Shown here: positions 3,289-55,452 of the stretch, one piece after another
Layout: every line of letters starts with the position of its first letter
Position numbering within the stretch: the stretch's first letter is position 1
NCBI RefSeq assembly: GCF_963921235.1
Contig: NC_086097.1
Span: 146,322,001-146,386,000, forward strand
Direction: 5' to 3'
DNA length: 64,000 nucleotides
From: Mobula hypostoma
Taxonomy: Eukaryota
Position numbers and translations under genes: made by a program
The notes under the pieces: model-generated
Database searches by the model: none
Told to the model about the DNA's origin: nothing
Seen by the model: the letters and a program-made list of their open reading frames with translations, nothing else

Positions 3289-4019
3289 CTGCAATAAAAA
3301 AATTCTAATTAAGAAAGAAAGAAGCGATTCTTGACTAGATGAACTTAGTAGATTACAAAGGCATATCATTTGAAATTTTACTGAATATTGTTTAGAAAAC
3401 CCATTTGTGATAAAGAACAAGGGAAGATTAGTAGACTATGTCAGTCATTTGTTCAAGACAACAGCTAAAACTTGAAGACTTAAAAATGGATTTCCAATCA
3501 CTGTCTAAAATGCTATTACAATAACAACATTTCCACTTTGACTTGATATACTTCTCATTTCACACATCCTGGTTATTGCACTGTGATTAGTTTGACAGAA
3601 GCTTAGAGAGTATTTAGCATAATCTAAAGGCTGGATGATATTCAGAAAGCCAAAACTATGAGGAAGCTTTCTGTTCTGAAATGCTTTTTAAGTGGACTAT
3701 AAAGTGACCGATTAATAAAAATAAGTAGTCATCTGAAATGAGATAAAGCAGCTAAAATAGCATGAGCTTAATGAACAAATTGCTGTGATTATTAATAAAC
3801 TAGATTGTTTATACATGCGATAAACACTTGCCTTAGCTTTTCCCAGGTTTGGAGCACCATACAAGTGATGAAAGCATGTTTGAAAAGTACTCAATGGAAT
3901 ACAAGCAGGACAGAGACAATTAACACTGGGCTTTCAAAGTTATATTTGCATTGTGGTTATGTACTGGGCTCAACATCTAGAGTAATCTGTGCCCAACACC
4001 AGAAAAACACTAAAACTAC

Positions 4020-4722
4020 TGTTACGTGACCAGTTTCATTTACTGTGGGTGTCACTTTAAAACACCTGGATGAGATGGGACTATGACGTCAGTATAACAA
4101 GCTGCAACAGACCGCTGGGACTTTCAGAGAAGGAGAGAATGTGGAAGCTTTGGACCTCAAGCTGCCAGCAGGAGCTTGCTGCCACAATGGCTAAAGTCTG
4201 ATACTTTCCCTTGCCAGATTGTGACTGTCACTGTGTATGATCCATATGTGGATTTTGTTGGAGTGCCCTGTGGCGACCACCTTTGTTAACCCTTACATGG
4301 TTTCGGGTATGTTATGTGGTAACCACTTGTGCTAAGGAATATTCCATGACTGTTATCCTTGTGATATTTCTAAGTGGATTTCAGGACAACTCGACGGATA
4401 AGATCTTCAGCGACTGTTACTTTGTTTTCCCAGCGTGGAACCTGTGGAATTCTTCGTGATCGCCTCCTCTCTACATTTTAATGTGGATTTACAAGTTTCT
4501 CTCGTCACTTATTCCGTGGATCACCGGACCTTTCTAGTTTGCCAATTTAAGACTTTAAGAACAGTTCCTAAGCTTGACAGTTTGGGAGCCACACACATAT
4601 AACACTGTTAACCTCTGTTTATTTCATTTAATTTTCTATATTTTGAGTAGATACTAATACATATAGTGTTTTAACATTAAAACCTGACTCAATTTGTGAT
4701 CTATTGCTGCTGGTACATAACA
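4020..4722 (+). mobile_element. Solo LTR (Gypsy-type)
   Basis: Termini TGTTACGTG...TACATAACA (TG...CA, imperfect inverted ends), ~700 bp, near 4-bp TSD ctac/ttac, no coding remnant. Confidence 0.65.
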
Positions 4723-6136: not shown

Positions 6137-6443
6137 AACCTCTAAATAGACAGGATTAAGGAACCCAATTCTTAATTTTGCCAATTTTAAACTTACGACA
6201 ACCTTAAAAGGTAAGTTTTTATTTGATTATCCGTTCTTTTAAAGTATCATAGGAAATATGGTCATCATTATAAAAACAAACGGTCATTTTCATTTGATCT
6301 AACAAAGTGATTTGTGGAGTAGACGTTTACAATTTGTGATTGCAACAAGTTAATTATCCAGCATTGAGAGAGTCTTAATTCAGCAATCTGACTTCCAATC
6401 CCAGAATACAGAAACCAAACAAGAGCAGAACTCTGATTTTTAC

Positions 6444-6577
6444 CTTTTTTCTGGATCTTTCTGTAGACACTGTGAAATCATCTTTCTAAAGGACTTGCCA
6501 TACTTTTTGACCATTTCCTTATCTTGCACACCTGTCTCCAAACAGGGGGGATCATTCTGAAGAGTTAGCATTAAAAC
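6444..6577 (-). CDS. OXSR1: OSR1 kinase coding exon (134 bp): [44 protein letters not shown](R)
   Basis: Manual translation; acceptor gttcag|, donor AG|gtaaaa; GVQDKEM, RKMIS and KDPEKR are OSR1-type residues. Confidence 0.92.
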
Positions 6578-14167: not shown

Positions 14168-15255
14168 CTAGCTCCAAAATCTGGCGTCCATCTCCAGTAA
14201 GCAACTGATGAGGCAGTGTTGACTGAAGAACAAATATTAGTCCCATCATTATGGCAAGATCATAAGACATAAGACATAGGAGTAGAAATAGGCCAGTTGG
14301 CCCACTGAGGCTGCTCTGTCATTTCAGCTTGGCTGATCCAATCACCTTTTCCCCACATCCCTTCATGCCCTGACTAATTAAACAATTGGGGGGGGGGAGA
14401 AAGTGTGCAAGAGATTTTCTTAATTGGCTTCCAATCTAATAAGTAGTTTTGGAGCTGGTGAATGAATAGAATAAATATTAGAATATTCTGGTTAGATAAG
14501 ATAAAATAATTAAAACTAAAGTTATTTTTAGGAAAATATTTTTCAGCTGTTCCGTAAAACTAGTGACACCCAAAATTAATCTCTGTATGACATCTTAAAA
14601 GCTTTCAAAATAGGATGTTTTACAAACTATTAGCACATGAAAAATAGTCCCTTAGGTCAAAATCCTACTGAACTTCAAGAACAATTACATTTGAAAAGTA
14701 GTGACTAGTTGTGCTGAACAATTATGAAAAAGTATGGATATTAACTTAAGTATTAATATAAATAATCAAGCAGCATTTTATGTTTGAACTTGACAAATTG
14801 TCTTTAACACTTCCATTTTTAGACAATTGGTCGAATAGGTCATGTGGTGGAAGTGAAACTTAAAACAATCCACATGAGATTCCTCTAAGTGCTCTCATTG
14901 TGTAAACTAGTTGAACAAATCTGCAATGTTATTTCAATTTTTTTTGCTACGTAAGGTAGGTATAGAAACAGAAACATAAATGAAGATTTATGACGTACCC
15001 TTAACTTCAATGTTTTACTTTTAAGATGTTTTTAACAAATGACACAAGTGAAAAGGCAAAGGGAAGTTAAATGAAAATGGTTCTGCAGCCCAGTAAATGA
15101 CACTTTTCCAATGTCTTTGTTCACTGACTTTCTATGATGGGAAATATTTCTTGGATACATGATGCCTGTACTTGTTTCCCTACCTAAGCAATCCACAAAG
15201 TGGTCTGTATGTCTGTTGTTACCTCAAAGGCTTTTCTCAGTTCCTAACGTGTATA

Positions 15256-16842
15256 CAGTGGCATGCAAAAGTTTGGGCACCCCGGGTCAAAATTTCTGTT
15301 ACTGTGAATAGTTAAGTGAGTAGAAGATGAACTGATTTCGAAATGTCATAAAGTTAAAGATGAAACATTCTTTTCAACATTTTAAGCAAATTTAGTGTAT
15401 TATTTTTGTTTTGTACAATTTGAGTGGAAAAAAAAGGAGCACCATGCAAAAGTTTCGGCACCCCAAGAGATTTGAGCTCTCAGATAATGTTTACCAAGGT
15501 CTCAGACTTTAATTAGCTTGTTAGGGCTATGGCTTGTTCACAGTCATCGTTAGGAAAGGCCAGGTGATGCAAATTTCAAAGCTTTATAAATACCATGACT
15601 CCTCAAATCTTGTCCCAACAATCAGCAGCCATGGGCTCTTCTAAGCAGCTGCCTAGCATTCTGAAAATTAAAATAAACGATGGTCACAAAGCAGGAGAAG
15701 GCTATAAGAAGATAGCAAAGCGTTATCAGGTAGCCGTTTCCTCAGTTCAAAATGTAATTAAGAAATGGCAGTTAACAGGAACGGTGGAGGTCAAGTTGAG
15801 GTCTGGAAGACCAAGAAAACTGCTTGTAGGATTGCTAGGAAGGCAAATCAAAACATCCATTTGACTGCAAAAGACCTTCAGGAAGATTTAGCAGACTCTG
15901 GAGTGGTGGTGCACTGTTCTACAGTGCAGCGACACCTGCACAAATACAACCTTCATGGTAGAGTCATCAGAAGAAAACCTTTCCTGCGTCCTCACCACAA
16001 AACTCAGCATCAGAAGTTTGCAAAGGAACATCTAAACAAGCCTGATGTATTTTGGAGACAAGTCCTGAGGACTGATGAAGTTAAAATAGAACTTTTTCAC
16101 CACAATGAGCAAAGGTATGTTTGGAGGAAAAAGGGTGCAGAATTTCATGAAAAGAACACTCCAACTGTAAAGCACGGGGGTGGATCGATTATGCTTTGGG
16201 CTTGTGTTGCACCCAGTGGCACAGGGAACATTTCACTGGTAGAGGGAAGAATTAATTCAATTAAATACCAGCAAATTCTGGAAGCAAACATCACACCATG
16301 TGTAAAAAAGCTGAAGATGAAAAGAGGATGGCTTTTACAACAGGATAATGATCCAAAACACACCTCAAAATCCACAAAGGATTACCTCAAGGTTTTCGCC
16401 ACGGCACTCACAGTCCCTTGACCTAAACACCATCAAAAATCTTTGGATAGACCTCAAAAGAGCAGTGCATGCAAGATGGCCCAAAAATCTCACAGAACTC
16501 GAAGCCTTTAGCAAGGAAGAATGGGCGAAAATCCCCCAAACAAGAATTGAACGACTCTTAGCCAGCTACAGAAGGCATTTATAAGCTGTGATACTTGCCA
16601 AAGGGGGTGTTACTAAGTACTGACCATGTAGGGTGCCAAACTTTTGCTTTGGGCCCTTTTTCTTTTTTGTTATTTTGAAACTGTAGAAGATGGAAATAAG
16701 AAAAGTAATCTTGCTTAAAATATTAAAGAAACATGTCATCTTTAACTTTACGCCTTTTGGAAATCAGGTTATCTTTTACTCCCTTAGCTAGTCACAGTAA
16801 CAGAAATTTTGACCGGGGTGCCCAAATATTTGCATGCCACTG
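15256..16842 (+). mobile_element. Full-length Tc1-family DNA transposon (IR/DR type), 1587 bp
   Basis: TA|CAGTGGCATGCAAAAGTTTGGGCACCCC ... GGGGTGCCCAAATATTTGCATGCCACTG|TA; ~210-bp inverted repeats with inner copies of the terminal motif (~15443-15464, ~16631-16647). Confidence 0.95.
15631..16623 (+). pseudogene. Tc1 transposase, frameshifted
   Basis: ORFs 15595..15864, 15765..16421, 16348..16584: paired-like HTH with GRPRK, TDE, KHGGGSIMLW, QQDNDPKH, and DLNTIKNLW (catalytic E of DLNPIENLW replaced by K). Confidence 0.92.
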
Positions 16843-17999
16843 TACATTTACTGTTGGTAAATGTACTTGCAACATTCCTTTTTGCCACCATACTTCAAAC
16901 AAAAATACATGCTGGCTATCTTTCGGAATTCAATGACACGGGAAATAGAAAGCAATGACAACCTCAACTATTTTTCTGCTTGTTGTTAAAATTTCTTCCA
17001 TTTGGAGGGGTTACTTGATGTCAATACCCATGTCTTGCTCAAGTCAAAATGGTTCAAGGACCACTTAAGAGCAATTTACCAGGGCTACACAGATTTGGCT
17101 TCACTTTTGATGGCAATGTCATTTCAAAGTGGACATGAAATTCCAAAACACAGCAGGCAAGCTCTATACTATAGATTTTTCTCACTTGATGCCTAAAAAA
17201 GTGTTAATTTATTCTTGTTGTGTGAAAATGCCATGTACAATCTGGGACACAAAGAATGGGAGTTACAGCAGGAAGAAAAGCAAGGACAAAGATGGAGACA
17301 GCAGCTGCAAAAATATGTGGATAAATGAAAGGTCAAGGCCAAAATAGCTGTGGCTTTCATACATCATTTACCGATGCCAGTTGTGGTTGGGAAGGATTCC
17401 AAAAAATACACAGAAGAAACCAAGGGCAAGGGATGAGTAACTAATTTTGGATACAAGGAATCAGGAAGTGTTGAGTGTTGGATTATAATAATGAAAAATC
17501 ATGAATGGAGGCAATTGCTTTGAGATTCTCATTACTTCATCTAATTTTGAAAGTCTGCTCATGAAATTTATTGCTCATTCTCACTGCACTGCAAATTCAG
17601 GATGGATATATATGACACACACACGCACACACACACAAAAACGAGGAAATTTAAAATCATATTTGGAAAGAGAAGCAGCATCACATTTCAGCTGCTTTCT
17701 TCAAATATTCCTTTGGCCTATCCCTTACCTATTTTAAAACGCTGAAAAAGATGTAGCATCATTATTTCACAAATTAATTGAGTTGGTGAGACCCATCAAC
17801 TCTGATAAGACCATCTTCTTTCAAATAGAGCTGACACATTTAATACCAGAATTTTCAGTTTTATTATACTCAGAATTTGCAGATTTTCATGCTGAGTTTA
17901 CTAGCAACCATTAAATGTTTCATCCAAATTCCACTAAGAAAAGCAAAAGCGGGAAATGTCTAATAACAGTTTTTTTTTGCAGATGTACTATGTAAAATC

Positions 18000-30610: not shown

Positions 30611-30923
30611 GGCAAGATTGAACAAGTTCTAGATTGATATATACATATCGTTTTAATCTGTTTTCTGCAGTGTGCTTTATGTCTATGTAGCACAATATGC
30701 ACTTAAACAAAAGCACTACAATGGAGTGCTAAGGTTATCTGAGAAGACAAATGTACATGTTTAAATTTGAAAAACTGAAATTTGACATTAATACCCAATG
30801 TCACACATCAGTTTGCTTCTATAATTTTCTATTATCCACATCAGTTTTTCATTACTTTAGCCAATCAAATGATCAGAATAATGTTTCTATCCCTTTCTAG
30901 CCGAAGGATGTGCAGTTAGTTAC

Positions 30924-30979
30924 CTGCAATTTGCACGGAGCCTTCCTCACCAAGAAGAATGTTTCCTGCCTTCAAATCT
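30924..30979 (-). CDS. OXSR1: OSR1 kinase coding exon (56 bp): (R)DLKAGNILLGEEGSVQIA(D), catalytic loop
   Basis: Manual translation; acceptor ttttgcag|, donor G|gtaac; completes HRD with the upstream exon and DFG with the downstream exon. Confidence 0.92.
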
Positions 30980-31159
30980 CTGCAAAATAAAACAAACAAG
31001 CTAATACATAGGAATCAGGGGATAGTATTACAAAGCACAGGTTGACCTTCTATAATCCGGCACCATTGAGACCTGAGGAGTGCCGGATTAGTGAAAATGC
31101 TGAATTACAGAAGGATCACATTAAGCAATAGCTAAACGCCTCATCATACTTTTAAAATA

Positions 31160-31442
31160 TCAAAGGATTCAAAGGTTCATTTAATGTCAGAGAAATGTAT
31201 ACAATATACATCCTGAAATGCTTTTTCTTTGCAACCATCTATGAAGAGGAGTGCCCCAAAGAATGAACGACAGTTGAATGTTAGAACCCCCAAGATCCCC
31301 CCCACCGCGCATCAGCAGCAGCGAGCAACAATCACCCCCCCTCCCACCAGCAAAAAAATAAAGCACACCCACTACCGGTACTCAAGCGTGAGCTAAGTGA
31401 TAACAAAGACACAGACTTGCAGTTACCCCAAAGACTACATTG
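31160..31442 (-). mobile_element. LINE-type 3' tail (Rex1-like microsatellite end), 5'-truncated
   Basis: Minus strand ends gcatttcaggatgtatattgtatacatttctctgacattaaatgaaCCTTTGAatCCTTTGA, same layout as Rex1 tails in this window. Confidence 0.55.
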
Positions 31443-31537
31443 CACTCGCAGTTACTGAGGGAATCCTCGTTAGTTTCTTTTCTTCCGCTTAGTAATATGC
31501 TTAAATTTAGCCGGGCACCATGTCTGATCTGAGGCTG
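31443..31537 (-). pseudogene. 28S rRNA 5'-end fragment (diverged), preceded by GC-rich putative ITS2 (31538-~31690)
   Basis: Minus strand CCTCAGATCAGACATGGTGCCCGGCTAAATTTAAGCATATTACTAAGCGGAAGAAAAGAAACTAACGAGGATTCCCTCAGTAACTGCGAGTG matches the conserved 5' end of eukaryotic 28S rRNA (ACCCGCTGAATTTAAGCATAT...GCGGAGGAAAAGAAACTAAC). Confidence 0.9.
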
Positions 31538-32352
31538 TAGGCAGAAGAGAACCGAGCCCTGGCCGGACGATGCCAGAGGGTAGTGCGCGACTGCTGGCAG
31601 CTGGGTGAGAAGGCGGACTGATCCAGCACGCCAGCTCCCCCTCCGCTGGCGGGTGAAACGGGCGAGTGCCAGGTGGCTGTGCCTCACGCAAATGATATTA
31701 GATGCAGGAAAACAAGCAGGAACTGCCTGTCTGTGCTTACAAAAGCGCACCAACACATGAACAGATCTAGCGCAACCAAAACAATGCACAGCAGATTGGT
31801 ACGGTGGCCCGGAAAATTTGAAATTACAGTTGCGCGAAAAATTTGAAATCAGTGTGGATTATCAAAGGGACTGGATTACAGGTAGTCAGATTAGTGAATG
31901 TCGACCTGTATCACTGTTACTGGAAATTTCAATAAGGTGAAAAATGTCAAGCTTGTATTCAGCAAGTTATATGTGAACAGTCCAAGAAAAAGTACCACTG
32001 TAGCTTATTGAGGGGGTGGCAGAACGGGGTAGAGGAGAGAAGAACCAACTTGCCATCAGTACAGATCTATTCAAGTATTCAATTTAAACATGGTCCAAAC
32101 CCAATCACATCCAACTCAAATCATAAACAAGAGAAAATCTGCAGATGCTGGAAATCCGAGCAGCACATACAAGAAGTCTGAGTACTTAAGTTTTTCGGTG
32201 GTCATGATCAGGGCCAAACCATAGCGGAGAAACAAACAACCTGTTCCAGAAACTCGACCGCTCAAGCAGTATCTGTGGGAGGAAATGTTTCGTGGATGCT
32301 CTAGATTGAAACTGTTTGATACTTTAGGATTCCAGAATTTACATCTGTATGC

Positions 32353-33230
32353 TGTGACAAGAATACACATAGATTAAGATGTAGCTGTCCTGTGCTGGCA
32401 CCAGTGGAATCAGCAGTTGGTCTGCCACCTGACTTCAGGAGAGAGAGAGAGATAAGGAAAACAATGGAGCAGCATTTGGAGATGTGTAATGAAGGGTCGG
32501 GGGAGAGAGTAACAGAAAGAGAGCTGTCAAGAGCAGCTCCCCCTTTGAACCCTGAACTGTTTGAAGTGATGGACAGGCGATACCCCAGCAGGGGGATAAA
32601 AAGGGACAGGTTCGCTAAGGCAGGACACACACACGACACCTGAGGTAACAAGACCCTGGAAGCAGTGCGTCTCTCACAAGTCGGTGGGAAGTACCGGGCC
32701 ATAAACGCACAGGGTGGAAAGGCACGATCGGCCGGAACCTGGTGTGTGTCCACCCTTGCCTGGGTGCCAGGTTCAGCGCAGGGAAACGATCGTATCTGGA
32801 AACGGAGGGGTCACGGTCGGTGACCTCAGATGACATCACAAAGGACTCGTCCGAAAGCTGACTGCGAAGGTCTGTGTCTGAAAACCCTGAATATTCATTC
32901 GTTTTTGCTCTCTCTCTCCTTCCCCCCCCACTGTCCATCGCCACGGCAGCGATTACTGCGAACTGAACTGAAGTAACTTGAACTGAACTTTGCATTACTT
33001 TGAAACTGGTCATTTACCCCTAGACAATGATAGAGCTTGATTGATCCTGTTATCTTAATTCTGTGTACATGTATGTTTATCACTGCTGAACTGTTGCATT
33101 CATTATCCTTTTGATTAGAGTACTGTGTTGCTTGTTTCTTTAATAAAACTTTCTTAGTTCAAGTAATCCAGACTCCAACTGAGTGATCCATTTCTGCTGG
33201 TTTGGCAACCCAGTTACGGGGTACGTAACA
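32353..33230 (+). repeat. 5' LTR (878 bp)
   Basis: TGTGACAAG...GTACGTAACA; direct repeat of 37183-38061. Confidence 0.95.
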
Positions 33231-33234
33231 TAAG

Positions 33235-33246
33235 TGGGGGATCGTC
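33235..33246 (+). promoter_or_regulatory. Primer-binding site, tRNA-Pro-like
   Basis: TGGGGGATCGTC a few bases after the 5' LTR; one mismatch from TGGGGGCTCGTC, the complement of the tRNA-Pro 3' end. Confidence 0.6.
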
Positions 33247-33290
33247 ATTGGGTCAAAATTCCCGAAAGAAAGAAAAGACAAACAGCAGAA

Positions 33291-36205
33291 ATGGAGGCTG
33301 AGGAATTTATAAAGGCGCCGACCTTGGAGGCATTAGAGGATGCCAGGAAATCGGAATTGGTAGCTGTGGCCAAACTGTTGAATCTTGCTAAGGGGAAGTC
33401 GACAATGAGGAGAGAGGAGATACACAGAGCTATCGCAGAGCACTGTGTATCTAAAGGTGTGTTTTCCCCAAGGCGAGCTGGGGGTGGTATCTATTGAAAA
33501 ACCTGCTGGAGACGCGGTACAGGTGCAGCTTGAAAAACTGAGACTTGAGCACGAGTTCCGGGTACGGCAGTTGGAGCGAGAAGAGAAAGAGAGGGAGAGA
33601 CAGCTGGAGCGAGAGGAGAAACAGAGGGAAAGGGAATTCGAGCTGGAGAAGTTAAAGATAAGGGCCAAGCAGGGGCTCGTGCCGAACCAAGGTGGAGGGT
33701 TCCGGGCGACCCAGGAGGTTAGGCTGGTACCCCCATTTGACAATACCGACGTGGATCGGTACTTTCTCCATTTCGAAAAAGTTGCTACAAGTCAGGACTG
33801 GCCGAAGGATAAGTGGGCTGTTTTACTTCAGAGTGTACTGTGTTACGTACCCCGTAACTGGGTTGCCAAACCAGCAGAAATGGATCACTCAGTTGGAGTC
33901 TGGAGTACTAGAACTAAGAAAGTTTTATTAAAGAAACAAGCAACACAGTAATCGAAAGGATAATAAATGCAACAATTCAGCGATGATAAACACACATGTG
34001 CACAGAATTAAGATAACAGCATCAATCAAGCTCTATCGTTGTCTAGGGGTAAATGACCAAATTTCAAAATGACTCAAAGTTCAGTCCAGTTCAGTTCGCA
34101 GTAATCGTTGCCATGGCGATGGACAACGTGGGGGAAGAGAGAGATAGAATAGGAACAACTGATCATTCAGAACACTGCTTCACTCACAGACCAGCGAGAT
34201 GGCTCACAGACCAGCGAGATGGCTCACAAACAGCTTTTGGGCGGGTCCTTGGTGATGTCACCTGAGGTCACCGACTGTGACCCCTCCTCCAGATGCGGTC
34301 GATCCTCTGCAGTGAACCCGGCACCCAGGCAAGGGCGGACACACACCGGGTTCCCGCTCATCGTACCTTTCCACCCTTGTCGTTGTCTGGTGCTTCTCAC
34401 CCACTCGTGAGAGGCGCACCGCTTCCAGGGTCTCGTTACCTCGGGTGGCGTGTGTGTCCGTCTTTAGCGAACCTGTCCCTTTTTATCCCCCTGCTGGGGT
34501 ATCGCCTGTCCATCACTTCAAACAGTTCAAGGTTCAAAGAGGGGAGCCGCTCCAGACAGCTCTCTCTCCCACATTCCTTCATTACACATCTCCAGACGCT
34601 GCTCCATTGTTCCTTATCTCTCCTTCCCCTGAGGGCAGGTGGCAGACCAACTGCTGATGCCACTGATGCTAGCCCAGGCCAGCAAACATCTTAATTTTAT
34701 GTGTATTCTCGTAACAACTGAAAGGGAAAGCCCAAGAAGCTTACTCAGCTTTGTCCGCGGAAGATGCCCAGAGGTATGAGGTGGTGAAAGAGGCTGTCCT
34801 CAGGATTTATGAGTTGGTCCCGGAGGCATACCGGCAGAAGTTCCGGAATGCGAGGAAGCAGTGGGACCGCACGTATTTAGAGTTTGCCCGTGAGGTGCAG
34901 ACATATTGTGAGCGTTGGTGCGCCTCGAAGGGGGTAGAGGGGGATTATGACAGACTGCTACAGCTGATCCTGATTGAGCAGTTTAAAGGTCGTGTCCCTG
35001 AGGGTATGAGACCCTACCTCGATGAGAAAGAGGCAGCCACGTTAGCCGCAACTGCTAAGTTAGCGGATGAGTATGCGTTGACACATAAAATGAAGTTTGC
35101 CCCGAGTAAAGGCTACCTGAAGGGTAGTCAGGACGATGGGGAGAGTCCGCCAGAAAAGTCAGAAAGTAAGCCGGGGACTAGTGAGAAGGATAAGGTAGAT
35201 CGGGAGCAGTCTGGTAGGAAGTCTCCTGGGGTTGTCTGTTATAATTGCGGGAAAGTCGGACACTTTGCGTCCAGGTGCTTTGCCCCAAAGAAGGAGACGG
35301 GAAAAGGAAAAATGGCGATTTTGACTGGCTGTATCGAGCTGGTAAACGAACCGCTAGGACAGGACAGGTCTGCCAAAGTTCAGGAAGGGCGCGAGAGGTT
35401 TATCTCGGCCGGATTGGTGTCGGTGAAGGAGAGGTTAAAACCAGTTCCAGTGCGGATCTGGAGAGACACAGGAGCGTGTCAGTCACTAATACTGAAGAGT
35501 GTATTAGAGTTTAGCTCAGAGACCCAGACTGGGGAGGTCAAGGTCAAAGGTATTGGAGAAGGGACAGAGACAGTCCCTTTGCACCAAGTACACTTACAAA
35601 GCAACCTGGTCTCTGGACTAGTCACGATCGGGGTGAGGTCCGAATTATCGATGAAAGGCGTGGAAGTCTTGCTCGGGAATGACGTCGCCGGGGGAATCAT
35701 GTTCCCAGTCGTGAGATTGACAGGTCAGCCTGCCAGCATTGAGGCCCCGCCCATGGACTCACAGGTTCATCACGGGACCGCGGTAGTAAATTTAGCTGAG
35801 ACATTTCTGCCAACCTTGTACAAGAAGGGGGTAGAAAGTGAAAAGAAGGAGTGTAGTAAGACAAGAGGTAGTGAGGGAGCTGGGACAGACGTAGCATTAG
35901 CCAGGAAAGAATTTGTGCAGACGCAAGAGCGAGACAAGGGGCTGATGGTTTTGGCAGGGACAGCTCTCTCTGACACAGACTTAACAGGCAATTGTGTAGA
36001 GGAGCAAGTGCTAAGGAAGAAAGGGAAACCAAGTACCGTACCCGCAGATGAGGAATGGGGAGTGGTGCAAAAGAGTTATGGGGATGAGGTTTTTAACCTG
36101 GCCCACAAGGTACCCCCCCGGTGGACATTTTGCGGTGCTGGAGAAAACAGTTGGTGGAATCATGAAAGAGGTTTACCGGCTGCCCAGGGGGAAGGATGTT
36201 ATTGA
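33291..36205 (+). pseudogene. gag (coiled coil, SCAN-like capsid, CCHC knuckle) - aspartic protease; frameshift near 33460 and split by a solo LTR
   Basis: MEAEEFIKAPT...; YELVPEAYRQKFR...LILIEQF...LADEY; CYNCGKVGHFASRC; RDTGA...LLGND. Removing 33841-34720 restores frame LLQSVL|KGKAQEAY. Confidence 0.9.
33841..34716 (-). mobile_element. Solo LTR of a related subfamily inserted antisense into gag
   Basis: TGTTACGTAC...GTAACA, perfect TSD ACTG (33837-33840, 34717-34720); reverse complement is clearly homologous to, but more diverged than, the host LTR pair. Confidence 0.93.
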
Positions 36206-37182
36206 TCATGGCCGACGCGAACTGGGACGGTCACAGGCTTTTGATATGCTAACAAACCTAGTCGGGGTTAGCGCGGAAATCAATGAAGCTAGGGTCCCCC
36301 TGATAAGAGAAAAAAACCTTTTTGAAAAGATGAGTATGGTATCGACCAGATGGGAGAAGGCTATTGTTTTGGCCAGCTCTGCTGATAAGGTCTCTCCCTT
36401 AATCCCCGAACAAAGCGACTCTTTAGGAGAAGTAATTAAACGACTCGCACACGTGTGTTTGATTGTCCCAAGGTGATGCAAAGAACTGGGACGTTGGGTG
36501 GTGTCTGTTACACTAGGTCAGCCTAGCGAACAACAGCCCTATAGAATGAGTAATTCAGTGACTAAAAGGACTGACGAACACAGAGGTGTGTATTGGCAAT
36601 TTAATACGGCTGTCTGAAGCCAGCTTGATAGTGAACCTTGAAAAAAATGAGTTCGGCCACACAAAGGTCACTTACTTGGGAATTGTGGTGACACAGGGGC
36701 AGCTGGCAGCAATGCAAGCTACAGTGCAGTCTATCGCTGACCTCCCCACCCCGACAGACAAGAGCGCCCTCAGAAGGCTCTTGGAGATGGTGGGGTACTG
36801 TAGGAAGTTTTGCAATAACTCTGCGGTCACTACCCCTCCCCCCCCCACTAAGCCCTTGCAAGAGAAAACTAAGTCGGAATGGGACGACCCTTGTTATTGT
36901 GGTTCGGGGCAAAACCAAATGAGAGGTTACATTGATCGCAATTCATCAGTGTTTTTGGCCACTATGAAGTTTGCTAAGTTGGAGCCTGGTCTAAGGGATT
37001 ATTAATAACACATATAAAAGGGACAGAAAATGTGATGGCTGACTGTGTCAGGTGTTGACAACTTCAAACTCACTGTGTTAGCCAAATAGCTGATAAAGAT
37101 GTATATTTGTGTGTACCAAATAATGTATTCACGTTTGTAATTTTTACCCCCCCCCCCGGTAAAAATCATTAAAGGGGGGAAG

Positions 37183-38061
37183 TGTGACAAGAATACACAT
37201 AGATTAAGATGTAGCTGTCCTGTGCTGGCACCAGTGGAATCAGCAGTTGGTCTGCCACCTGACTTCAGGAGAGAGAGAGAGATGAGGAAAACAATGGAGC
37301 AGCATTTGGAGATGTGTAATGAAGGGACGGGAGAGAGAGTAACAGAAAGAGAGCTGTCAAGAGCGGCTCCCCCTTTGAACCCTGAACTGTTTGAAGTGAT
37401 GGACAGGCGATACCCCAGCAGGGGGATAAAAATGGAAAGGTTCGCTAAGGCAGGACACACACACGACACCTGAGGTAACAAGACCCTGGAAGCAGTGCGT
37501 CTCTCACAAGTCGGTGGGAAGTACCGGGCCATAAACGCACAGGGTGGAAAGGCACGATCGGCCGGAACCTGGTGAGTGTCCACCCTCGCTTGGGTGCCAG
37601 GTTCAGCGCAGGGAAACGATCGTATCTGGAAACGGAGGGGTCACGGTCGGTGACCTCAGATGACATCACAAAGGACTCGTCCGAAAGCTGACTGCGAAGG
37701 TCTGTGTCTGGAAGCCCTGAATATTCATTCGTTTTTGCTCTCTCTCTCCTTCCCCCCCCAACTGTCCATCGCCACGGCAGTGATTACTGCGAACTGAACT
37801 GAAGTAACTTGAACTGAACTTTGCGTTACTTTGAAACTGGTCATTTACCCCTAGACAACGATAGAGCTTGATTGATCCTGTTATCTTAATTCTGTGTACA
37901 TGTATGTTTATCATTGCTGAACTGTTGCATTCATTATCCTTTTGATTAGAGTACTGTGTTGCTTGTTTCTTTAATAAAACTTTCTTAGTTCTAGTAATCC
38001 AGACTCCAACTGAGTGATCCATTTCTGCTGGTTTGGCAACCCAGTTATGGGGTACGTAACA
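37183..38061 (+). repeat. 3' LTR (879 bp)
   Basis: About 18 differences from the 5' LTR by eye (~2%). Confidence 0.95.
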
Positions 38062-40897: not shown

Positions 40898-41408
40898 ACT
40901 ACCTGCCCCTCCATATCTTCATATCCTCTGCAAATCTTCCAACAAACCCATCAATTCCATCATCCAAATCATTGACATAAAACGTAAAAAGAATGGTCCC
41001 AACAAAGACCACAGTGGCACACCACTAATCACCAGCAGCCAGTTATTAAAGGCTCCCTTTATTCCCACTCCTTGACTCTTGCCAATTGGCCACTGGTTTA
41101 TCTCTGCTAGAATCTTTCCTGTAATATCATGTGTTTGTAGCTTGTTAAGCAGCCTCAAGTTTGGCACCTTGTCAAAGCCCATCTGAAAATCAAAGTACAC
41201 AACATCAACCAATTCTCCTTTGTCTATCCTGCTTGTTACTTCTTCAAAGAATTCCAACAGATTTGTCAGGCAAGATTTTCCCTGAGGATTTTCCAGACCC
41301 AATCAGTTCCCCTCTACCACCACTCTTCTCTGTCTAGCGGAATTAGTCCTTACTCTTAATAATTTCTCATTTGGCTCCTCCCACTTCCTCCAAACTAAAG
41401 GTGTAGCC

Positions 41409-42581
41409 ATGGGCACCTGTATAGGTCCTAGCTATGTCTGCCTTTTTGTTGGCTTTGTGGAACAATCTATGTTCCGTGCCTATTCTGGTATCAGTCCCCT
41501 ACTTTTCCTTCGCTACATTGACGGCAGCATTGGCGCTGCTTCCTGCATGCATGCTGAGCTCATTGACTTTATTAACTTTGCCTCCAACTTTCATCCTGCC
41601 CTCAAGTTTACCTGGTCCATTTCCGACACCTCCCTCCCCTTTCTAGATCTTTCTGTCTCTGTCTCTGGAGACAGCTTATCCACTGATGTCTACTATAAGC
41701 CTACTGACTCTCACAGCTATCTGGACTATTCCTCTTCTCACCCTGTCTCTTGCAAAAACGCCATCCCCTTCTCGCAATTCCTCCGTCTCCGCCGCATCTG
41801 CTCTCAGGATGAGGCTTTTCATTCTAGGACGAGGGAGATGTCTTCATTTTTTAAAGAAAGGGGCTTCCCTTCCTCCACTATCAACTCTGCTCTTAAAAGC
41901 ATCTCCCCCATTTCACGTACATCTGCTCTCAGTCCATCCTCCCACCACCCCACTAGGAATAGGGTTCCCCTGGTCCTCACCTACCACCCCACCAGCCTCC
42001 GGGTCCAACATATTATTCTCCGTAACTTCCGCCACCTCCAACGGGATCCCACCACTAAGCACATCTTTCCCTCCCCCCCTCTCTCTGCATTCCGCAGGGA
42101 TCGCTCCCTACACAACTCCCTTGTCCATTCGTCCCCCCCATCCCTCCCCACTGATCTCCCTCCTGGCACTTATCCGTGTAAGCGGAACAAGTGCTACACA
42201 TGCCCTTACACTTCCTCCCTTACCACCATTCAGGGCCCCAAACAGTCCTTCCAGGTGAGGCATCACTTCACCTGTGAGTCGACTGGGGTGATATACTGCG
42301 TCCGGTGCTCCCGACGTGGCCTTTTATATATTGGTGAGACCCGACGCAGACTGGGAGACCGCTTTGCTGAACATCTACGCTCTGTCCGCCAGAGAAAACA
42401 GGATCTCCCAGTGGCCACACATTTTAATTCCACATCCCATTCCCATTCTGACATGTCTATCCACGGCCTCCTCTGCTGTAAAGATGAAGCCACACTCAGG
42501 TTGGAGGAACAACACCTTATATTCCGTCTGGGTAGCCTCCAACCTGATGGCATGAACATTGACTTCTCTAACTTCCGCTAG
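41409..42581 (+). pseudogene. PLE reverse transcriptase (C-terminal part) + GIY-YIG endonuclease
   Basis: 390-aa open frame: MGT...PSY, FLRYIDG (YIDD with second Asp lost), PFLD, YYKPTD, IPFSQFLRLRRICS, CxxC, VIYCVRC...YIGET...RFAEH. Confidence 0.9.
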
Positions 42582-45457: not shown

Positions 45458-46387
45458 TATAGTCATAGTCATATTTTATTAATCCCGGGGGAAATTGGTT
45501 TTTGTTACAGTTGCTCCATGAATAATAAATAGTAATAGAACCATAAATAATTAAATAGTAATATGTAAATTATGCCAGGAAATAAGTCCAGGACCAGCCT
45601 ATTGGCTCAGGATGTCTGACCCTCCACGGGAGGAGTTGTAAAGTTTGATGGCCACAGGCAGGAATGACTTCCTATGAAGCTCTGTGCTGGATCTCAGTGG
45701 AATGAATCTCTGGCTGAATGTACTCCTGTGCCCACCTGGTACATTATGTAGTGTATGGGAGACATTGTCCAAGATGGCATGCAACTTAAGACAGCATCCT
45801 CTTTTCAGACACCACCATGAGAGAGTCCAGTTCCATCCCCACAACATCACCGGCCTTACGAATGAGTTTGTTGATTCTGTTGATGTCTGCCACCCTCAGC
45901 CTACTGCCCCAGCACACAACAGCAAACATGATAGCACTGGCCACCACAGACTCGTAGAACATCCTCAGCATCATCCGGCAAATGTTAAAGGACCTCAGTC
46001 TCCTCAGGAAATAGAGACGGCTCTGACCCTTCTTGTAGACAGCCTCAGTGTTCTTTGACCAGTCCAGTTTATTGTCAATTCGTATCCCCAGGTATTTGTA
46101 ATCCTCCACCATGTCCACACTGACCCCATGGATGGAAACAGGGGTCACCGGTACCTTAGCTCTCCTCAGGTCTACCACCAGCTCCTTAGTCTTTTTCACA
46201 TTAAGCTGCAGATAATTCTGCTCACACCATGTGACAAAGTTTCCTACCGTAGCCCTGTACTCAGCCTCATCTCCCTTGCTGATGCATCCAACTATGGCAG
46301 AGTCATCAGAAAACTTCTGAAGATGACAAGACTCCATGCAGTAGTTGAAGTCCGAGGTGTAAAAGGTGAAGAGAAAGGGAGACAAGA
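45458..46387 (-). mobile_element. Rex1/Babar-clade LINE 3' part
   Basis: ORF 45786..46385 (SPFLFTFYTSDF, KFSDDSAIVG, KTKELVVDLRR, YKYLG, RLYFLRRLRSF); (CATAGT)n tail. Confidence 0.88.
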
Positions 46388-46394
46388 CTATAAC

Positions 46395-46775
46395 TATGCT
46401 ACTGAGGGCATTGCTATTACAGTTGGAGCATAATTCTCACACCATCTGTAAGGAGTATGTATGGTCTCCCCATGACTGTGTGCGTTTCCTCTGGGTTGTC
46501 TGAGATATTATTATTCTGTATTTTATTAGTAAGTCTGCAAACAGCTAAGTACGTTTTTAAATGTTGCCGCTGTAATGAAATTTCCCACTTGGGATCAATA
46601 AAGTACCTATTATTATTACGTTTCCTCCCACAGTCCAAAGACATACTGGTTAGTAGGTTAATTGGTCATTGTAAAATTGTCCTGTGATTAGGCTCGGGTT
46701 AAGTAGGTGGGCTGCTGAGTGTCACTGCTCGTTGGGCTGAGTGCCGGTTCCATACTGCATCTAAATAAATAAATA
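46395..46775 (+). mobile_element. V-domain SINE interrupted by a ~115-bp LINE tail (46502-46618)
   Basis: V core breaks at gggttgtct and resumes gtttcctcccacagtccaaagac; insert ends aaatttcccacttgggatcaataaagtacc(TAT)n. Confidence 0.65.
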
Positions 46776-49032: not shown

Positions 49033-50722
49033 ATTTAGAGTTTCTTACATAATGCAATCTACAGTAACTTTCTAGAAATACAAGAAAATAAAGTTAAACA
49101 CAAAGGAGGAAATTAATGTCAGAACCAAGATGAGAGATCTTTATCTTTAAATTCCATAAGTTCCAATCAACCAATTGGAAGGCAGTGGTGAATTTTGGAA
49201 CTGATTTTTGCCTTTGCCATGAGGTTGTCCCAATGATAAGGGTCTCATTGCAAGTCCTTTTGTGGAGCACAGTGTGGTGCAGATTAGTAGCCAATTTTTG
49301 TCTTGCAGATAAGAATACAACGTCCATCCTTGTGTGCATTGGTGAATGAGTCAATGATTACCAGAACTCAGGTACTGAGCAGGTTGAATCTGCATTTTGC
49401 AGTTCAACGACTGAAATTTGGGTGATAATTGTTCTTAAAGAGTATAGTCATCACAGGTTGATCAGCTTTCCATTAACTTCACTCTCAATGTGGCAAGAAG
49501 GATTTTGAGCAAAGGGGGCACTAACTGGTTCTATTATAGACCTGCTGGTTAGTGCCACAGCTTGCATAACCGCAAGACCATCAGACCATAATAAATAGAA
49601 GCATACATTGTGGAGCAAACTGAAATCCATACTGCCATTCAAGGACCAGCTCTTCAATCACTGGGAGGAAACATTTGGGAAGAATGATGGTGATGATCTT
49701 CTCTGTGGCTGATTCCAGAAATAAAAAATAAGACCGTAGATTTATAACTCAAATTCATCAACATCTTCAAGGCAGCAGTACCTCAAGGCAGCAGCATCAT
49801 TAAGAAACCACACCATCCAGGTGATGCCTTCTCTTTACTACACTAAAAATGTTTTAGTGACTGCTTCTTCCCTTCTGTCATCATATTTTTGAATGTTCCA
49901 AGAACATAAATCACTTTTTTTTGCACTATTTACTTGTCCTACACTGTATTGCTGCTGTAGGAGCAACAAATTTCAGGACACATGTTGATGATAATAAAAT
50001 TGATTCAGATACCATCTGCTCCTAATCATTGCTATTATTTTTAAGCCTTGATCTCCTTGGCAGAAGAACCAAAGATTCTCTTTCCACTTGTTAAGTATGG
50101 CAACCCTTAAGTTGTGGACACCATAGCTCTTGCAGGCTGGGAGATGACATTATCTTCGAGAATTGCCTTTGTGAGATCATTGGAAGCTTCAGTATTCATC
50201 TCCTTGCGACAATTGGTAGTGGCATCATGAGACAAATTGATGGAATTCGATTCCAACCACAGTTGCTTTCAAATGTAGAAGATATCACAGCCATCCTCAT
50301 TTTATCACAGCTACACTATGCTGACTACCTTCTATGTATTTAGAATTCATGTAGTTAGAATTCATGCATTTCAAAGATTCTGCTAAATAATCAAAAATGA
50401 GGACAGAGTTTCAAAGCAGGACTGAAATAGTAGTAGGGCTTTCCCAGAACACTCAGATAAATCTTAAAACTACAGCTGAAGATCACTTTTACTTAGGTGA
50501 TACTCAAAGGAAATAAAAAATAAAGTATTCTCAACATAGCCACCATAGGTATTATTGTACACATGGATCATCAATTTGTTTTACAAAATAGCTGACTGAA
50601 ATCTGTTGCATCACTGAGTGGCTCAGAAGAATTGTTACTAAAAGAACATAAAATATTCAAAATGGGAAAGCTGCATCTCCAGCTCAAACTCACAATCAAT
50701 ATTTAAAACGCACTTTTCTTAC

Positions 50723-50864
50723 CTATGAATCTGCCCGTTCCTGTGCAGATAATCAAGCCCCTCCAGTACTTCCTTCAAAATGGTAGCTATGACAGTCTCC
50801 TCCAAAACTCCATTTTTGTGATCTCCCTTTGCTATCACATGTTTAATTATATCTAGTACAGATC
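50723..50864 (-). CDS. OXSR1: OSR1 kinase coding exon (142 bp): (G)[46 protein letters not shown](R)
   Basis: Within ORF 50719..50907; acceptor tttcag|, donor AG|gtaag; phase 1 start and phase 2 end fit neighbouring exons. Confidence 0.92.
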
Positions 50865-51964
50865 CTGAAACAAAACCGAATGGGCAAAATAAAATGAATG
50901 AACCCAAATTTTACCAAGTGTAGCTGAAACATGCAAATGTATATCACATGTTTTATAATGCTCTACATTGTTAGTAAATGGTTAGAATCTGGTTTTAATG
51001 ATGCATGTTAATCTTGTTTGACCATATCCTTTTGTACATAAAATATTCAACTTCAAATCAACTTCATAATAGGAAAAAAACATTAATTTTAAAATAAAAG
51101 CAACCAAGATATTGTGTGCTTGTCTAGATGCAAAATAATTTACTTTTTACAGATCCACTGTTAAAAATCAACTAAATTGGCCTGTAAGAATGAAGTACTT
51201 CTTCAGGCCCCCTACTCCACAAGACTGAGTAAAGAGTTAAAAGCTTCCAAAGTATCTTAGGGGTGACATGGAGATGAGGAAAAGAAAACAGCAAAGTAGA
51301 AAATAAGCCAATCTCTTCCTCATGTTTTTTGTTCTTAGACACACTGCAGTATCATGTTCACATGGGGTTACCTTTAAAAACTTCATGGCCTAGTTTGGGG
51401 CATAGGTGTGGAGGTGGTAATAATATGCAGAAATAAACAGAATTCTGGGCAAGATACATTGAGTGCACTGGTATTTAACCCACAAGCATTTACCTGTACT
51501 TTTAAGGGTAAACCAGAGACAATTTACTGAAATTTAAGCCATTTAATTGCCAAATGGCTGAAGTAAGAACACACATTTACATTGAATTTGAATACATTTC
51601 TTAATAACTAGCAAAATACCAAAGCTTACTACATTTCCTTATTTTGGGGTAAAATACAATTCATCTGAACAAACAGTTCATTGATTCTAGTTAGCATTAA
51701 AATCTAACTAAAATCACCTAGAATTGACCTGCATGTGCTCAACTGGCAAGTACGTAAAGTGAAAGGCCTTTAATGTGCAGTGTAAAGACTGAGGAGGATT
51801 TATCCACACCGTCGCAACCAGTGGGTAAAAGATTCCTTCCCATACATAACCAAGTTCAATTGAAGCTGACTGGCACAGAATTTAAAGCAAGCCAAGTCAG
51901 CTTTAAATAAATTTGGATACTTGATCTTTCCAAACATACAAGTTTTAACATTAAAAACACTTAC

Positions 51965-54034: not shown

Positions 54035-55452
54035 TTTTAACCATCGTCCCCGTGCCGAAGAAGCTTTCAGTGTCCTGTCTCAACGACTACCGTCCTGTCG
54101 CACTCACATCCATCATCATGAAGTGCTTCGAGAGGCTCGTCATGAGGCACATCAAGACCCTGCTGCCCACCTCATTGGACCCCTGCAGTTCACGTACCTT
54201 CCCAACCTTTCAACAGATGACGCCATTGCCATCACTCTCCACCTGCCCCTAACCCACCTGGACAAAAAAGACGTACATTCAAATGCTGTTCATAGACTTC
54301 AGTTCAGCATTCAACACAATCATTCCTCAGAAACTGATTGGAAAGCTGAGCCTACTGGACCTGAACACCTCCCTCTGCAAATGGATCCTAGAATTCCTGA
54401 CTGGGAGACCTCAGTCAGTCTGGATTGGAAGCAGCATCTCCAACACCATCACACTGAGCACGGGGGTCCCCCAGGGCTGTGTGCTCAGTCCACTGCTGTT
54501 CACTCTGCTGACCCACGACTGTGCTGCAACACACAGCTCGAACCACATCATCAAGTTCGCCAATGGCACGACCATGGTGGGTCTCATCAGCAAGAACGAT
54601 GAGTCAGCATACAGAGAGGTGGTGCAGCGGCTAACAGACTGGTGCAGAGCCAACAACCTGTCTCTGAATGTGAACAAAACAAAAGAGATGGTTGTTGACT
54701 TCAGGAGGACACAGAACGACCACTCTCCGCTGAACATCGATGGTGTTCACCTGGCAGAGAATCTCACCTGGTCCCTCAACACCAGCTCCATTGCAAAGAA
54801 AGCCCAACAGCGTTTCTATTTTCTGCGAAGGCTGAGAAAAATCCATCTCCCACCCCCCATCCTCACCACATTCTACAGAGGTTGTATTGACAGCATCGTG
54901 AGCAGCTGCATCACTGCCTGGTTCGGAAATTGCACTATCTCAGATCACAAGACCATGCAGCGGATAGTGAGGTCAGCTGAGAAGATCGGGGTCTCTCTTC
55001 TCGCCATTACAGACATTTACACCACATGCTGCATCCGTAAAGCAAACAGCATTATCAAGGACCCCACACACCCCTCATACAAACTCTTCTCCCTCCTGCC
55101 ATCTGAAAAAAGGCACCGAAGCATTTGGGCTGTCACGACCAGACTATGTAACAGTTTCTTCCCCCGAGCTATCAGACTCCTCAATACCCAGAGCCTGGAC
55201 TGACACCAACCTACTGCCCTCTACTGTGCCTATTGTTTTGTTTATTATTTATTGTAATGCCTGCACTATTTTGTGCACTTTATGCAGTCCTGGGTAGGTC
55301 TGTAGTCTAGTGTAGTTTTGTGTTGTTTTACATAGTTCAGTGTAGTTTTTGTATTGTTCATGTAGCACCATGGTCCTGAAAAACATTGTCTCGTTTTTAC
55401 TGTGTACTGTACCAGCAGTTATGGTTGAAATGACAATAAAAAGTGACTTGAC
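54035..55452 (+). mobile_element. Rex1/Babar-clade LINE, 5'-truncated
   Basis: ORFs 54052..54252 ([11 protein letters not shown]) and 54283..55203 ([42 protein letters not shown]); AATAAA and (GACTT)n tail. Confidence 0.9.

What the first reader, a model, noticed from the sequence alone, without database searches (positions are those of the whole stretch)
31038..31908. rDNA ITS2/28S junction fragment embedded in a Tigger-like DNA transposon and joined to a LINE-type tail
Seen: between the TIRs, the minus strand reads ~150 bp of GC-rich sequence, ~95 nt matching the 5' end of 28S rRNA (31537-31443), then directly a 5'-truncated retroelement tail with a CCTTTGA repeat end (31442-31160). Established: 28S is preceded by ITS2 only in rDNA and pre-rRNA; the described 28S-derived SINEs I know use the 3' end of 28S. 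Inference: either (a) a non-autonomous DNA transposon family captured an rDNA piece and spreads it, with the tail as a later insertion, or (b) a pre-rRNA/LINE template-switch chimera, a possible new rRNA-headed retroposon. I found no TSD around the rDNA+tail block, which mildly favours (a). The rRNA piece is in the same sense as the host OXSR1 transcript and lies ~460 bp from the 56-bp catalytic exon.
Basis: partly seen in the sequence, partly recalled or inferred. Interest (0 to 1): 0.72.

Follow-up and report, generated by a model that had tools for sequence, protein, structure and literature searches.

The report
Ray transposon family carrying rDNA fragment
A small cut-and-paste transposon in this animal, probably a ray, carries the start of the 28S ribosomal RNA gene fused to a retrotransposon tail and has spread that cargo to many sites, an unusual variant of known cargo-carrying transposons with no sign of a host function.

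Summary
31537-31443 (minus) matches LSU rRNA model positions 1 to about 95 (E 2e-15). It is fused to a microsatellite-ended tail between 24-nt TIRs. It is not a one-off. Contigs of four organisms show: (i) an empty orthologous site with one TA in organism I, so 31038-31908 arrived as one unit; (ii) paralogous contigs, 10-20% diverged, that bridge left arm/tail (1 record), tail/28S (2), 28S/GC-rich (7) and GC-rich/right arm (1, plus the probable ortholog); (iii) five paralogous right ends stopping at TA. So tail and rRNA piece travel together inside a non-autonomous TA-type DNA transposon family. Not shown: ITS2 identity of the GC-rich 153 bp (indirect, about 80%), any record spanning the whole unit, free chimera copies, the LINE clade, Tigger membership, absence from Dfam/Repbase. 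The scan had no look-alike on other DNA. New variant of a known kind; interest 0.42.

The parts
31036..31037 (+). left TSD copy (TA, here CA)
   Evidence: sequence; empty site in X18 record 17 leaves one TA
31038..31159 (+). left arm of the non-autonomous DNA transposon; TIR about 31038-31061; 31038-31127 shared with a short ~150-bp form
   Evidence: TIR 18/24; joints 31081-31127 to 31856-31874 in 8 of 12 rows shown of table 5c
31160..31442 (-). 5'-truncated 3' tail of a very abundant non-LTR retroelement, ending in a 9-bp microsatellite repeat at 31160-31179; clade not identified
   Evidence: 64-219 contigs per listed place per run end at 31160-31179 in unrelated flanks; no homolog in the window
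31443..31537 (-). 5' end of 28S rRNA, model positions 1 to about 95, decayed
   Evidence: Rfam RF02543 E 2.2e-15; 7 listed sites where the contigs' dominant letter differs from the window (table 3)
31538..31690 (-). GC-rich 153 bp directly upstream of 28S position 1; probably the 3' end of ITS2 (indirect evidence only)
   Evidence: 67% GC; 7 listed paralogous records bridge 31537/31538; 9-26 contigs per run carry the other letter at 31601
31691..31908 (+). right arm of the DNA transposon; TIR about 31885-31908; 31856-31908 shared with the short form
   Evidence: 5 paralogous records (11-16% diverged) end at 31910/31911 and go on in unrelated flank
31909..31910 (+). right TSD (TA)
   Evidence: sequence; paralog ends and empty site
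30924..30979 (-). 56-bp exon of the host OSR1/SPAK-family kinase (OXSR1 favoured); context, not part of the element

Best explanation
An 871-bp non-autonomous cut-and-paste transposon (Tc1/mariner-pogo type: TA duplication, 24-nt TIRs) whose founder copy received one RNA-templated insertion and then spread it as cargo. Step 1 (inferred): the reverse transcriptase of an abundant non-LTR element began on its own 3' tail at a nick inside a MITE copy. After about 280 nt it continued, by template switch or prior ligation, onto a pre-rRNA fragment ending at 28S nt ~95. It ran through the 28S 5' end and about 150 nt into ITS2. Step 2 (shown at junction level): the TIRs stayed intact, so a transposase acting in trans copied the composite to many TA sites. 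It did so in lineages leading to organisms A, B, D and I. Step 3 (shown): one copy sits 58 nt upstream of a splice acceptor of the host kinase; it is present in A and B and absent in I. A short internal-deletion form (~150 bp, no cargo) also exists. The cargo is most likely a passive passenger decaying neutrally. My odds: composite family 0.9, ITS2 0.8, single RNA-templated arrival about 0.65.
For: Empty site: X18 record 17 lies on 30800-31034 and then directly on 31908-32110 with no letters between. Paralogs: flanks and orthologous pieces differ by 0-4.4%, bridging records by 10-20%. A joint 31551 to 31702 stands in both X5 and X18 (sides 20-21, weak). Right-arm paralogs end at the TA: X1 r6, r7, X10 r15, r16, X18 r23. 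rRNA piece and tail share one orientation, and the tail keeps its terminal repeat. 83% of 18 human 28S/LINE-1 chimeras are same-sense (PMC13174262). A 5'-extended 28S precursor exists in mouse (28.5S, cut 281 nt upstream; PMC3061060). Weak hint, since depth is no copy number: the 28S marker 31508 tracks the inner arms across four runs (ratio to 31788 0.43-0.68, like 31136 and 31743).
Against: No listed record spans the whole unit. The left arm/tail joint rests on 1 record. The GC/right-arm joint rests on 1 paralog, and its 87 intervening letters did not align. Only 30 records (32 rows) were listed; 43,832 pieces were not shown and the longest were kept, which favours bridging records. X18 r19 starts exactly at 31443 with 5 loose letters and may be an rDNA piece without the tail. 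X5 r25, X5 r28, X18 r19 and X18 r21 have 66-173 further letters with no listed second piece. No clear TSD flanks the cargo. No cargo-free long element (joint near 31159 to 31690) is among 15 of 86 joints shown, so the pre-insertion state was not seen. ITS2 was never aligned. The GC-rich piece folds no better than shuffles (z 0.22).
Confidence: 0.65

Rival explanations
1. Two-step capture, the first reader's (a) moved back in time: the MITE copied ITS2-28S DNA by gap repair or fork switching (Pack-TIR route). The LINE tail then inserted into that founder at 28S nt ~95, before the family amplified.
For: ITS2 and 28S are contiguous in rDNA as well as in pre-rRNA. No TSD surrounds the whole cargo. 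Animal Pack-TIRs form by DNA-level routes (PMC8277862). X18 r19 has the 28S end without the tail.
Against: The tail would have to land exactly at the rDNA/left-arm border with no 28S or TSD remnant on its far side: the tail end abuts the left arm directly. Same-sense orientation would be a coin toss.
Confidence: 0.2
2. rRNA-headed retroposon, a form of (b): a truncated LINE copy first landed in an rDNA unit at 28S nt ~95. Pol I co-transcripts then carried a LINE 3' end and were retrotransposed repeatedly with variable ITS2 truncation. The MITE carries just one such copy.
For: It explains the contiguity, the sense orientation and the intact tail in one stroke. The tail family is very abundant. 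Summed depth at 31483 is 1.8-3 times that of the best inner-arm marker (weak, real rDNA could supply it). The lead came from earlier notes on RNA-gene-headed LINEs (e1-7783879, e1-7858572; unchecked).
Against: Among listed pieces, those that reach 31690 run on in register into the right arm for 4-12 letters (X1 r3, r4, X5 r28, X10 r13) or bridge it (X5 r27, r29). No free chimera with its own flanks is listed. Depth at 31423 is 3.7-13 times that at 31483, so most tail copies lack the 28S head (weak). No A/B box, tRNA or 5S head.
Confidence: 0.18
3. The GC-rich 153 bp is not ITS2 but the transposon's own interior. Only a mature 28S 5' fragment was copied to its natural end and joined to the tail.
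For: The Rfam model starts at position 1, so it cannot speak for upstream DNA. Reverse transcription of mature 28S would stop exactly there. No direct ITS2 match was obtained. Fold z 0.22.
Against: GC jumps to 67% against 40-43% in the arms. The dominant letter at 31553 differs by organism (window letter 80% in X5, other letter 99% in X10). Depth at 31567 and 31657 varies 6-8-fold among X1, X5 and X10 where inner-arm markers vary at most 1.5-fold. That is what an overlay of species-homogenised rDNA contigs would give (indirect). No joint near 31159 to 31538 is among those shown.
Confidence: 0.15
4. One-off nested insertion at this locus only.
For: No second copy in the 64-kb window and no look-alike in the scan's index.
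Against: Diverged contigs bridge the internal joints, including in organism I, where this site is empty.
Confidence: 0.02

Closest known systems
Helitron-amplified retroposed inserts in vesper bats (HelibatN424, HelibatN544; PMC4224331, passages read)
   Same: An RNA copy is reverse-transcribed into a DNA transposon, which then multiplies it.
   Different: There the carrier is a rolling-circle Helitron, the cargo is mRNA with poly(A) and TSDs, and empty exemplars were found (118 copies over four cases). Here the carrier is a TA-type TIR element, the cargo is rRNA-gene sequence plus a microsatellite-ended LINE tail, and no empty long exemplar was seen.
[quoted passage not shown]
   Same: A 28S fragment joined 5' of a truncated LINE, mostly in the same orientation; template switch or ligation proposed.
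   Different: Those are single loci, L1-driven, and mostly from 28S nt 3,636-4,115; 'ITS2' and 'pre-rRNA' do not occur in that main text. Here it is nt 1-95 with upstream (probable ITS2) sequence and a non-poly(A) tail, then amplified by a DNA transposon.
Multicopy Pack-TIRs of animals (frog, alligator, fly Ssk-FB4; PMC8277862, passages read; supplements not seen)
   Same: Host sequence between TIRs, the same chimeric structure at several sites, transposition after capture.
   Different: DNA-level capture of mostly unique sequence, few copies; 'rRNA' has 0 occurrences in the main text. Here the cargo includes a retroelement tail and rDNA.
SINE28 (PMC4994717, abstract and outline) and MeloSINE (PMC4844689, figure legend)
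   Same: 28S-derived sequence in a dispersed repeat; MeloSINE has a LINE-derived tail.
   Different: Both use the 3' part of 28S and move by retrotransposition. This uses the 5' end and, on present evidence, moves inside TIRs.
Pokey/mPok of Daphnia (PMC10946416, passages and Table 2)
   Same: A DNA transposon with rDNA-derived internal sequence; the only DNA transposon in the part of that review's table of rDNA-derived TE sequences that I saw.
   Different: piggyBac superfamily, targets 28S, carries IGS repeats. This element has TA TSDs, sits in ordinary sites and carries transcribed-unit sequence.

Membership tests
Non-autonomous Tc1/mariner-pogo-type TIR element (MITE) | TA target-site duplication | tested here: met
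   empty site with one TA in X18 r17; five paralogs end at 31910/31911
Non-autonomous Tc1/mariner-pogo-type TIR element (MITE) | short terminal inverted repeats | tested here: met
   18 of 24 letters; Tigger TIRs are 18-23 bp in Chondrichthyes (PMC9219625)
Non-autonomous Tc1/mariner-pogo-type TIR element (MITE) | no transposase; many copies with distinct flanks | tested here: met
   longest frame has no Pfam hit at E 1; paralogous ends in 3 of 4 runs among listed records
Tigger (pogo) specifically | ends homologous to an element encoding a Tigger transposase | not testable with these tools
   no genome held and no TE library; the window's only transposase ORF seen is Tc1-type; the likeness to Tigger ends is recalled
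rDNA ITS2 | lies directly 5' of 28S position 1 | tested here: met
   Rfam match starts at model position 1 at 31537; 7 paralogous records bridge the point
rDNA ITS2 | aligns to the species' ITS2 | not testable with these tools
   no rDNA unit reachable: motif scan of metagenome contigs 0 hits; no printed elasmobranch ITS2 found
RNA/LINE chimeric insertion | RNA piece 5' of a truncated LINE 3' end, same orientation | tested here: met
RNA/LINE chimeric insertion | one TSD around the whole block | tested here: inconclusive
   only a 4-nt candidate
RNA/LINE chimeric insertion | tail assigned to an ORF-bearing LINE | tested here: inconclusive
   no match above shuffles in the window; 0 hits in viral and metagenome contigs
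28S-derived SINE (SINE28, MeloSINE) | derived from the 3' part of 28S | tested here: not met
   model positions 1 to about 95
28S-derived SINE (SINE28, MeloSINE) | dispersed free copies with their own flanks and TSDs | tested here: inconclusive
   none among 30 listed records; 43,832 pieces and 1,335 loose ends not shown
28S-derived SINE (SINE28, MeloSINE) | internal Pol III promoter or Pol III transcription | tested here: inconclusive
   no A/B-box motif, tRNA or 5S match; transcription not tested
Multicopy Pack-TIR / cargo-amplifying DNA transposon | host-derived sequence inside TIRs, same chimeric structure at several loci | tested here: met
   every internal joint is bridged by at least one paralog; no single record spans all
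Multicopy Pack-TIR / cargo-amplifying DNA transposon | cargo-free parent element identified | tested here: inconclusive
   only a short deletion form seen; no joint near 31159 to 31690 among 15 of 86 joints shown

The most novel reading that the evidence does not exclude
The cargo is itself a retroposon of a new sort. A LINE tail lodged in an rDNA unit at 28S nt ~95 is co-transcribed by RNA polymerase I and retrotransposed repeatedly as ITS2-28S-headed copies. One copy then boarded a MITE, so the same rRNA-derived module spreads by both copy-and-paste and cut-and-paste.
Probability: 0.18. Interest if true: 0.7.

Novelty: new variant of a known kind. Interest (0 to 1): 0.42.

Why it matters
It extends 'an RNA copy retroposed into a DNA transposon and then amplified' from bat Helitrons to a TIR element, with rRNA-gene cargo. 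My literature searches turned up no vertebrate DNA transposon family that carries the 28S 5' end or ITS2; Dfam and Repbase could not be checked. If the GC-rich part is ITS2, the copies preserve an old ITS2 sequence from before organisms A, B, D and I split. They would also add dispersed background to rDNA FISH, read-depth rDNA counts and ITS2 work in these animals. The locus is a clean presence/absence marker (A and B filled, I empty). There is no evidence of a host function.

Tried and rejected
No whole genome is held, so no copy count or consensus. Self-BLAST: no other copy in the window, best other E 0.21. Rfam over 5 kb and 64 kb: 0 hits; the Flavi_xrRNA hit (E 9.4) is chance. ITS2/28S boundary motif in metagenome contigs: 0. 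Tail motif in viral and metagenome contigs: 0 and 0. Plasmids by blastn: no match. Tail against the window's other LINE tails: best score 36, shuffles 34-49; a likeness in layout to the tails of the RT+ALKBH8_N elements at 45786-46436 and 54253-55203 is by eye only. Fold of the GC-rich part: z 0.22, uninformative. No tRNA gene. The 158-codon frame across the element has no Pfam hit and is rejected as a gene. The 11/12 repeat between the 28S end and the tail (31444-55 and 31415-26, last of 15 families) is rejected as the switch point, because both copies are retained. No RNA holder listed. No RNA run was laid; of 24 runs listed, 4 were laid. X10 has no cover over 3 right-flank bins, so the site's state in organism D is unknown. 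No printed elasmobranch ITS2/28S boundary was found (PMC6418218 supplements). The FISH28SR primer is named but not printed in the passages read (PMC3322161; 10.1101/301556, its supplement closed), so overlap with that primer site is recalled, not tested. Ricksha carrying a retroviral piece is recalled; PMC5753468 only lists it as MuDR. PMC5786205 and PMC5322556 passages gave background only. Scan look-ups by words: 0 findings with all words.

Full report
1. Observation. On the minus strand, 31537-31443 matches the eukaryotic LSU rRNA model from its first position (65.6 bits, gathering score 50, E 2.2e-15). Posterior probabilities fall after about position 95, where the tail begins. Several helix pairs are broken, as in a decayed copy. 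The mouse 28S primers printed in PMC9841413 (passage) mark the same start and show that real 28S continues differently at the point where the window switches to the tail. Upstream lies a 153-bp stretch of 67% GC with CpG o/e 0.70; the arms are 40-43% GC. The tail ends in a 9-bp repeat, 31160-31179. The ends 31038 and 31908 match at 18 of 24 letters, reached by 5 of 200,000 random spans, about 3 of which should be the element itself. The host is an OSR1/SPAK-family kinase on the minus strand, OXSR1 by one exon and a tie by another. The element ends 58 nt before the acceptor of the 56-bp exon. Earlier scan notes call the genome a devil ray; I did not check that.

2. Is it a family? No genome is held and the window has no second copy. 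I therefore laid Logan contigs of 4 of the 24 listed runs on 30800-32110 at 80% likeness: X1, X5, X10 and X18, four organisms in four studies. X1 has 0 differences over 496 letters of the two locus-anchored pieces and may be the source data. 43,724 records were laid; only 30 records (32 rows) are listed, the longest first. I read record coordinates of minus-strand records as running in the record's own direction (X1 r1 against X5 r24).

3. The unit and its ends. X18 record 17 covers 30800-31034 (record 288-522) and then 31908-32110 (record 523 on), with no letters between. One TA is left and there is no footprint. So the whole unit is absent from this site in organism I, whose flanks differ by 2.6% and 4.4%. 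In organism B the site is filled: r24 and r30 run from flank into each TIR, and r29 is 3.5% diverged. The state in D is unknown. Five records (X1 r6, r7; X10 r15, r16; X18 r23), 11-16% diverged, follow the right arm for 113-162 nt, stop at 31910/31911, and go on for 132-451 unrelated letters. That defines a TA-duplicating TIR family.

4. The cargo travels with it. Counting only records with 31 or more letters on each side: left arm/tail is bridged by X18 r18 (10.6% diverged, in the organism with the empty site). Tail/28S is bridged by X5 r25 and r26 (13% and 12%; they overlap, so they are two loci besides the ortholog). 28S/GC-rich is bridged by seven records (13-20.5%). GC-rich/right arm is bridged by X5 r27 (through 87 unaligned letters) and by the probable ortholog r29. 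Four more records cross that joint by only 4-12 letters, and a deletion joint 31551 to 31702 stands in both X5 and X18 with sides of 20-21. Against a 4% ortholog rate the bridging paralogs give binomial P between 4e-3 and 2e-13. At 31601, inside the GC-rich part, 22, 26, 16 and 9 contigs carry the other letter, at 0.9-2.3 times single-copy depth each. That puts a floor of roughly ten to twenty-odd loci per genome. Summed depth in the inner arms is 200-900 times the flank, but the tool warns that this is no copy number. Against this reading: no record spans the unit; two joints rest on one paralog each; several records have 66-173 further letters with no listed piece; X18 r19 begins exactly at 31443 with 5 loose letters and may be plain rDNA.

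5. Other forms. Eight of 12 rows shown in table 5c join 31081-31127 to 31856-31874: a short ~150-bp form without cargo. Left-end depth is 7-13 times the inner-arm marker in X1, X5 and X10 but 1.6 times in X18. This hints that the short form expanded later than the long one (weak). No joint that would mark a cargo-free long element is among the 15 of 86 joints shown. The tail's 3' end belongs to a far larger family: 64-219 contigs per listed place end there in unrelated flanks. Depth at 31423 is 3.7-13 times that at 31483, so most tail copies lack the 28S head (weak). The LINE could not be named.

6. Is the GC-rich part ITS2? Not shown directly. For: it abuts 28S position 1 with no visible scar; it is GC-rich; paralogs bridge the point; the dominant letter at 31553 differs among organisms; and depth at 31567 and 31657 varies 6-8-fold among three runs whose inner arms vary at most 1.5-fold, as an overlay of homogenised rDNA would. 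Against: mature 28S copied to its end would also stop at position 1; the piece folds no better than shuffles. It would be the last 10-18% of an ITS2 of 860-1500 bp (shark range, PMC3322161). I put it at 0.8.

7. Mechanism. Shown: TIR/TA mobility of the whole unit, and cargo shared by paralogs. Inferred: the cargo arrived once by target-primed reverse transcription. It started on the LINE tail and passed onto a pre-rRNA fragment, as proposed for human 28S/LINE-1 chimeras, 83% of 18 in the same sense (PMC13174262). A 5'-extended 28S precursor is documented in mouse (PMC3061060). Rivals are DNA-level capture followed by tail insertion in the founder (0.2), a LINE lodged in an rDNA unit whose Pol I co-transcript is the mobile RNA (0.18), and a non-ITS2 interior (0.15). 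The lack of a TSD (only a 4-nt candidate) does not decide among them. Of 37 listed differences inside the element that I tabulated (40 shown, 202 not shown), 28 are transitions and 9 are CpG-type, consistent with neutral decay.

8. Comparison with known elements. It works like the bat Helitrons that amplified retroposed mRNAs (PMC4224331) and like multicopy Pack-TIRs (PMC8277862). Its cargo resembles a 28S/LINE chimera. It is not a SINE28 or MeloSINE member: those use the 3' part of 28S. In the part of the review's table of rDNA-derived TE sequences that I saw, the only DNA transposon is Pokey/mPok, with IGS repeats (PMC10946416). It meets the structural tests of a Tc1/mariner-pogo-type MITE; Tigger membership is untested (one search gives only TIR length and TA). 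Searches found no description of this family. The scan's index has no look-alike.

9. Verdict. Real, multi-copy and apparently undescribed, but assembled from known processes and with no sign of function. New variant of a known kind, interest 0.42. The boldest open reading, a Pol I-fed ITS2-28S-headed retroposon, has probability 0.18 and would merit 0.7.

Noticed in passing
window 31038-31127 joined to 31856-31908: A short ~150-bp cargo-free form of the same element exists (8 of 12 rows shown in table 5c). Its ends are far deeper than the inner arms in X1, X5 and X10 but not in X18, a weak hint of a later burst.
   Followed up: partly
window 32353-38061: LTR retrotransposon with LTRs 97.95% alike (32353-33230, 37183-38061) and a SCAN + zinc-knuckle gag-like frame. 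An inverted, 80%-alike LTR-like copy (33841-34716) sits inside that frame.
   Followed up: no
window 15254-16844: Tc1-like element with ~210-bp inverted ends 78% alike and a Tc3-type transposase fragment at 15762-16421.
   Followed up: no
window 41286-42581: 431-codon frame with a weak GIY-YIG hit (E 1.6e-4, just under the cut-off), Penelope-like by recall.
   Followed up: no
window 30980-31185: The element ends 58 nt upstream of the splice acceptor, and its tail puts an ATTAAA (31185) in the sense of the host transcript; any effect on splicing or polyadenylation is untested.
   Followed up: no
window 50722-50865: This kinase exon scores SPAK (77.5 bits) about level with OSR1 (76.6), while exon 6443-6577 favours OSR1.
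   Followed up: partly
window 45786-46436 and 54253-55203: Two non-LTR fragments with RT plus ALKBH8_N domain and short-repeat tails similar in layout, but not in sequence, to the cargo tail.
   Followed up: partly
window 31415-31426 and 31444-31455: An 11/12 direct repeat straddles the tail/28S joint; probably chance.
   Followed up: partly
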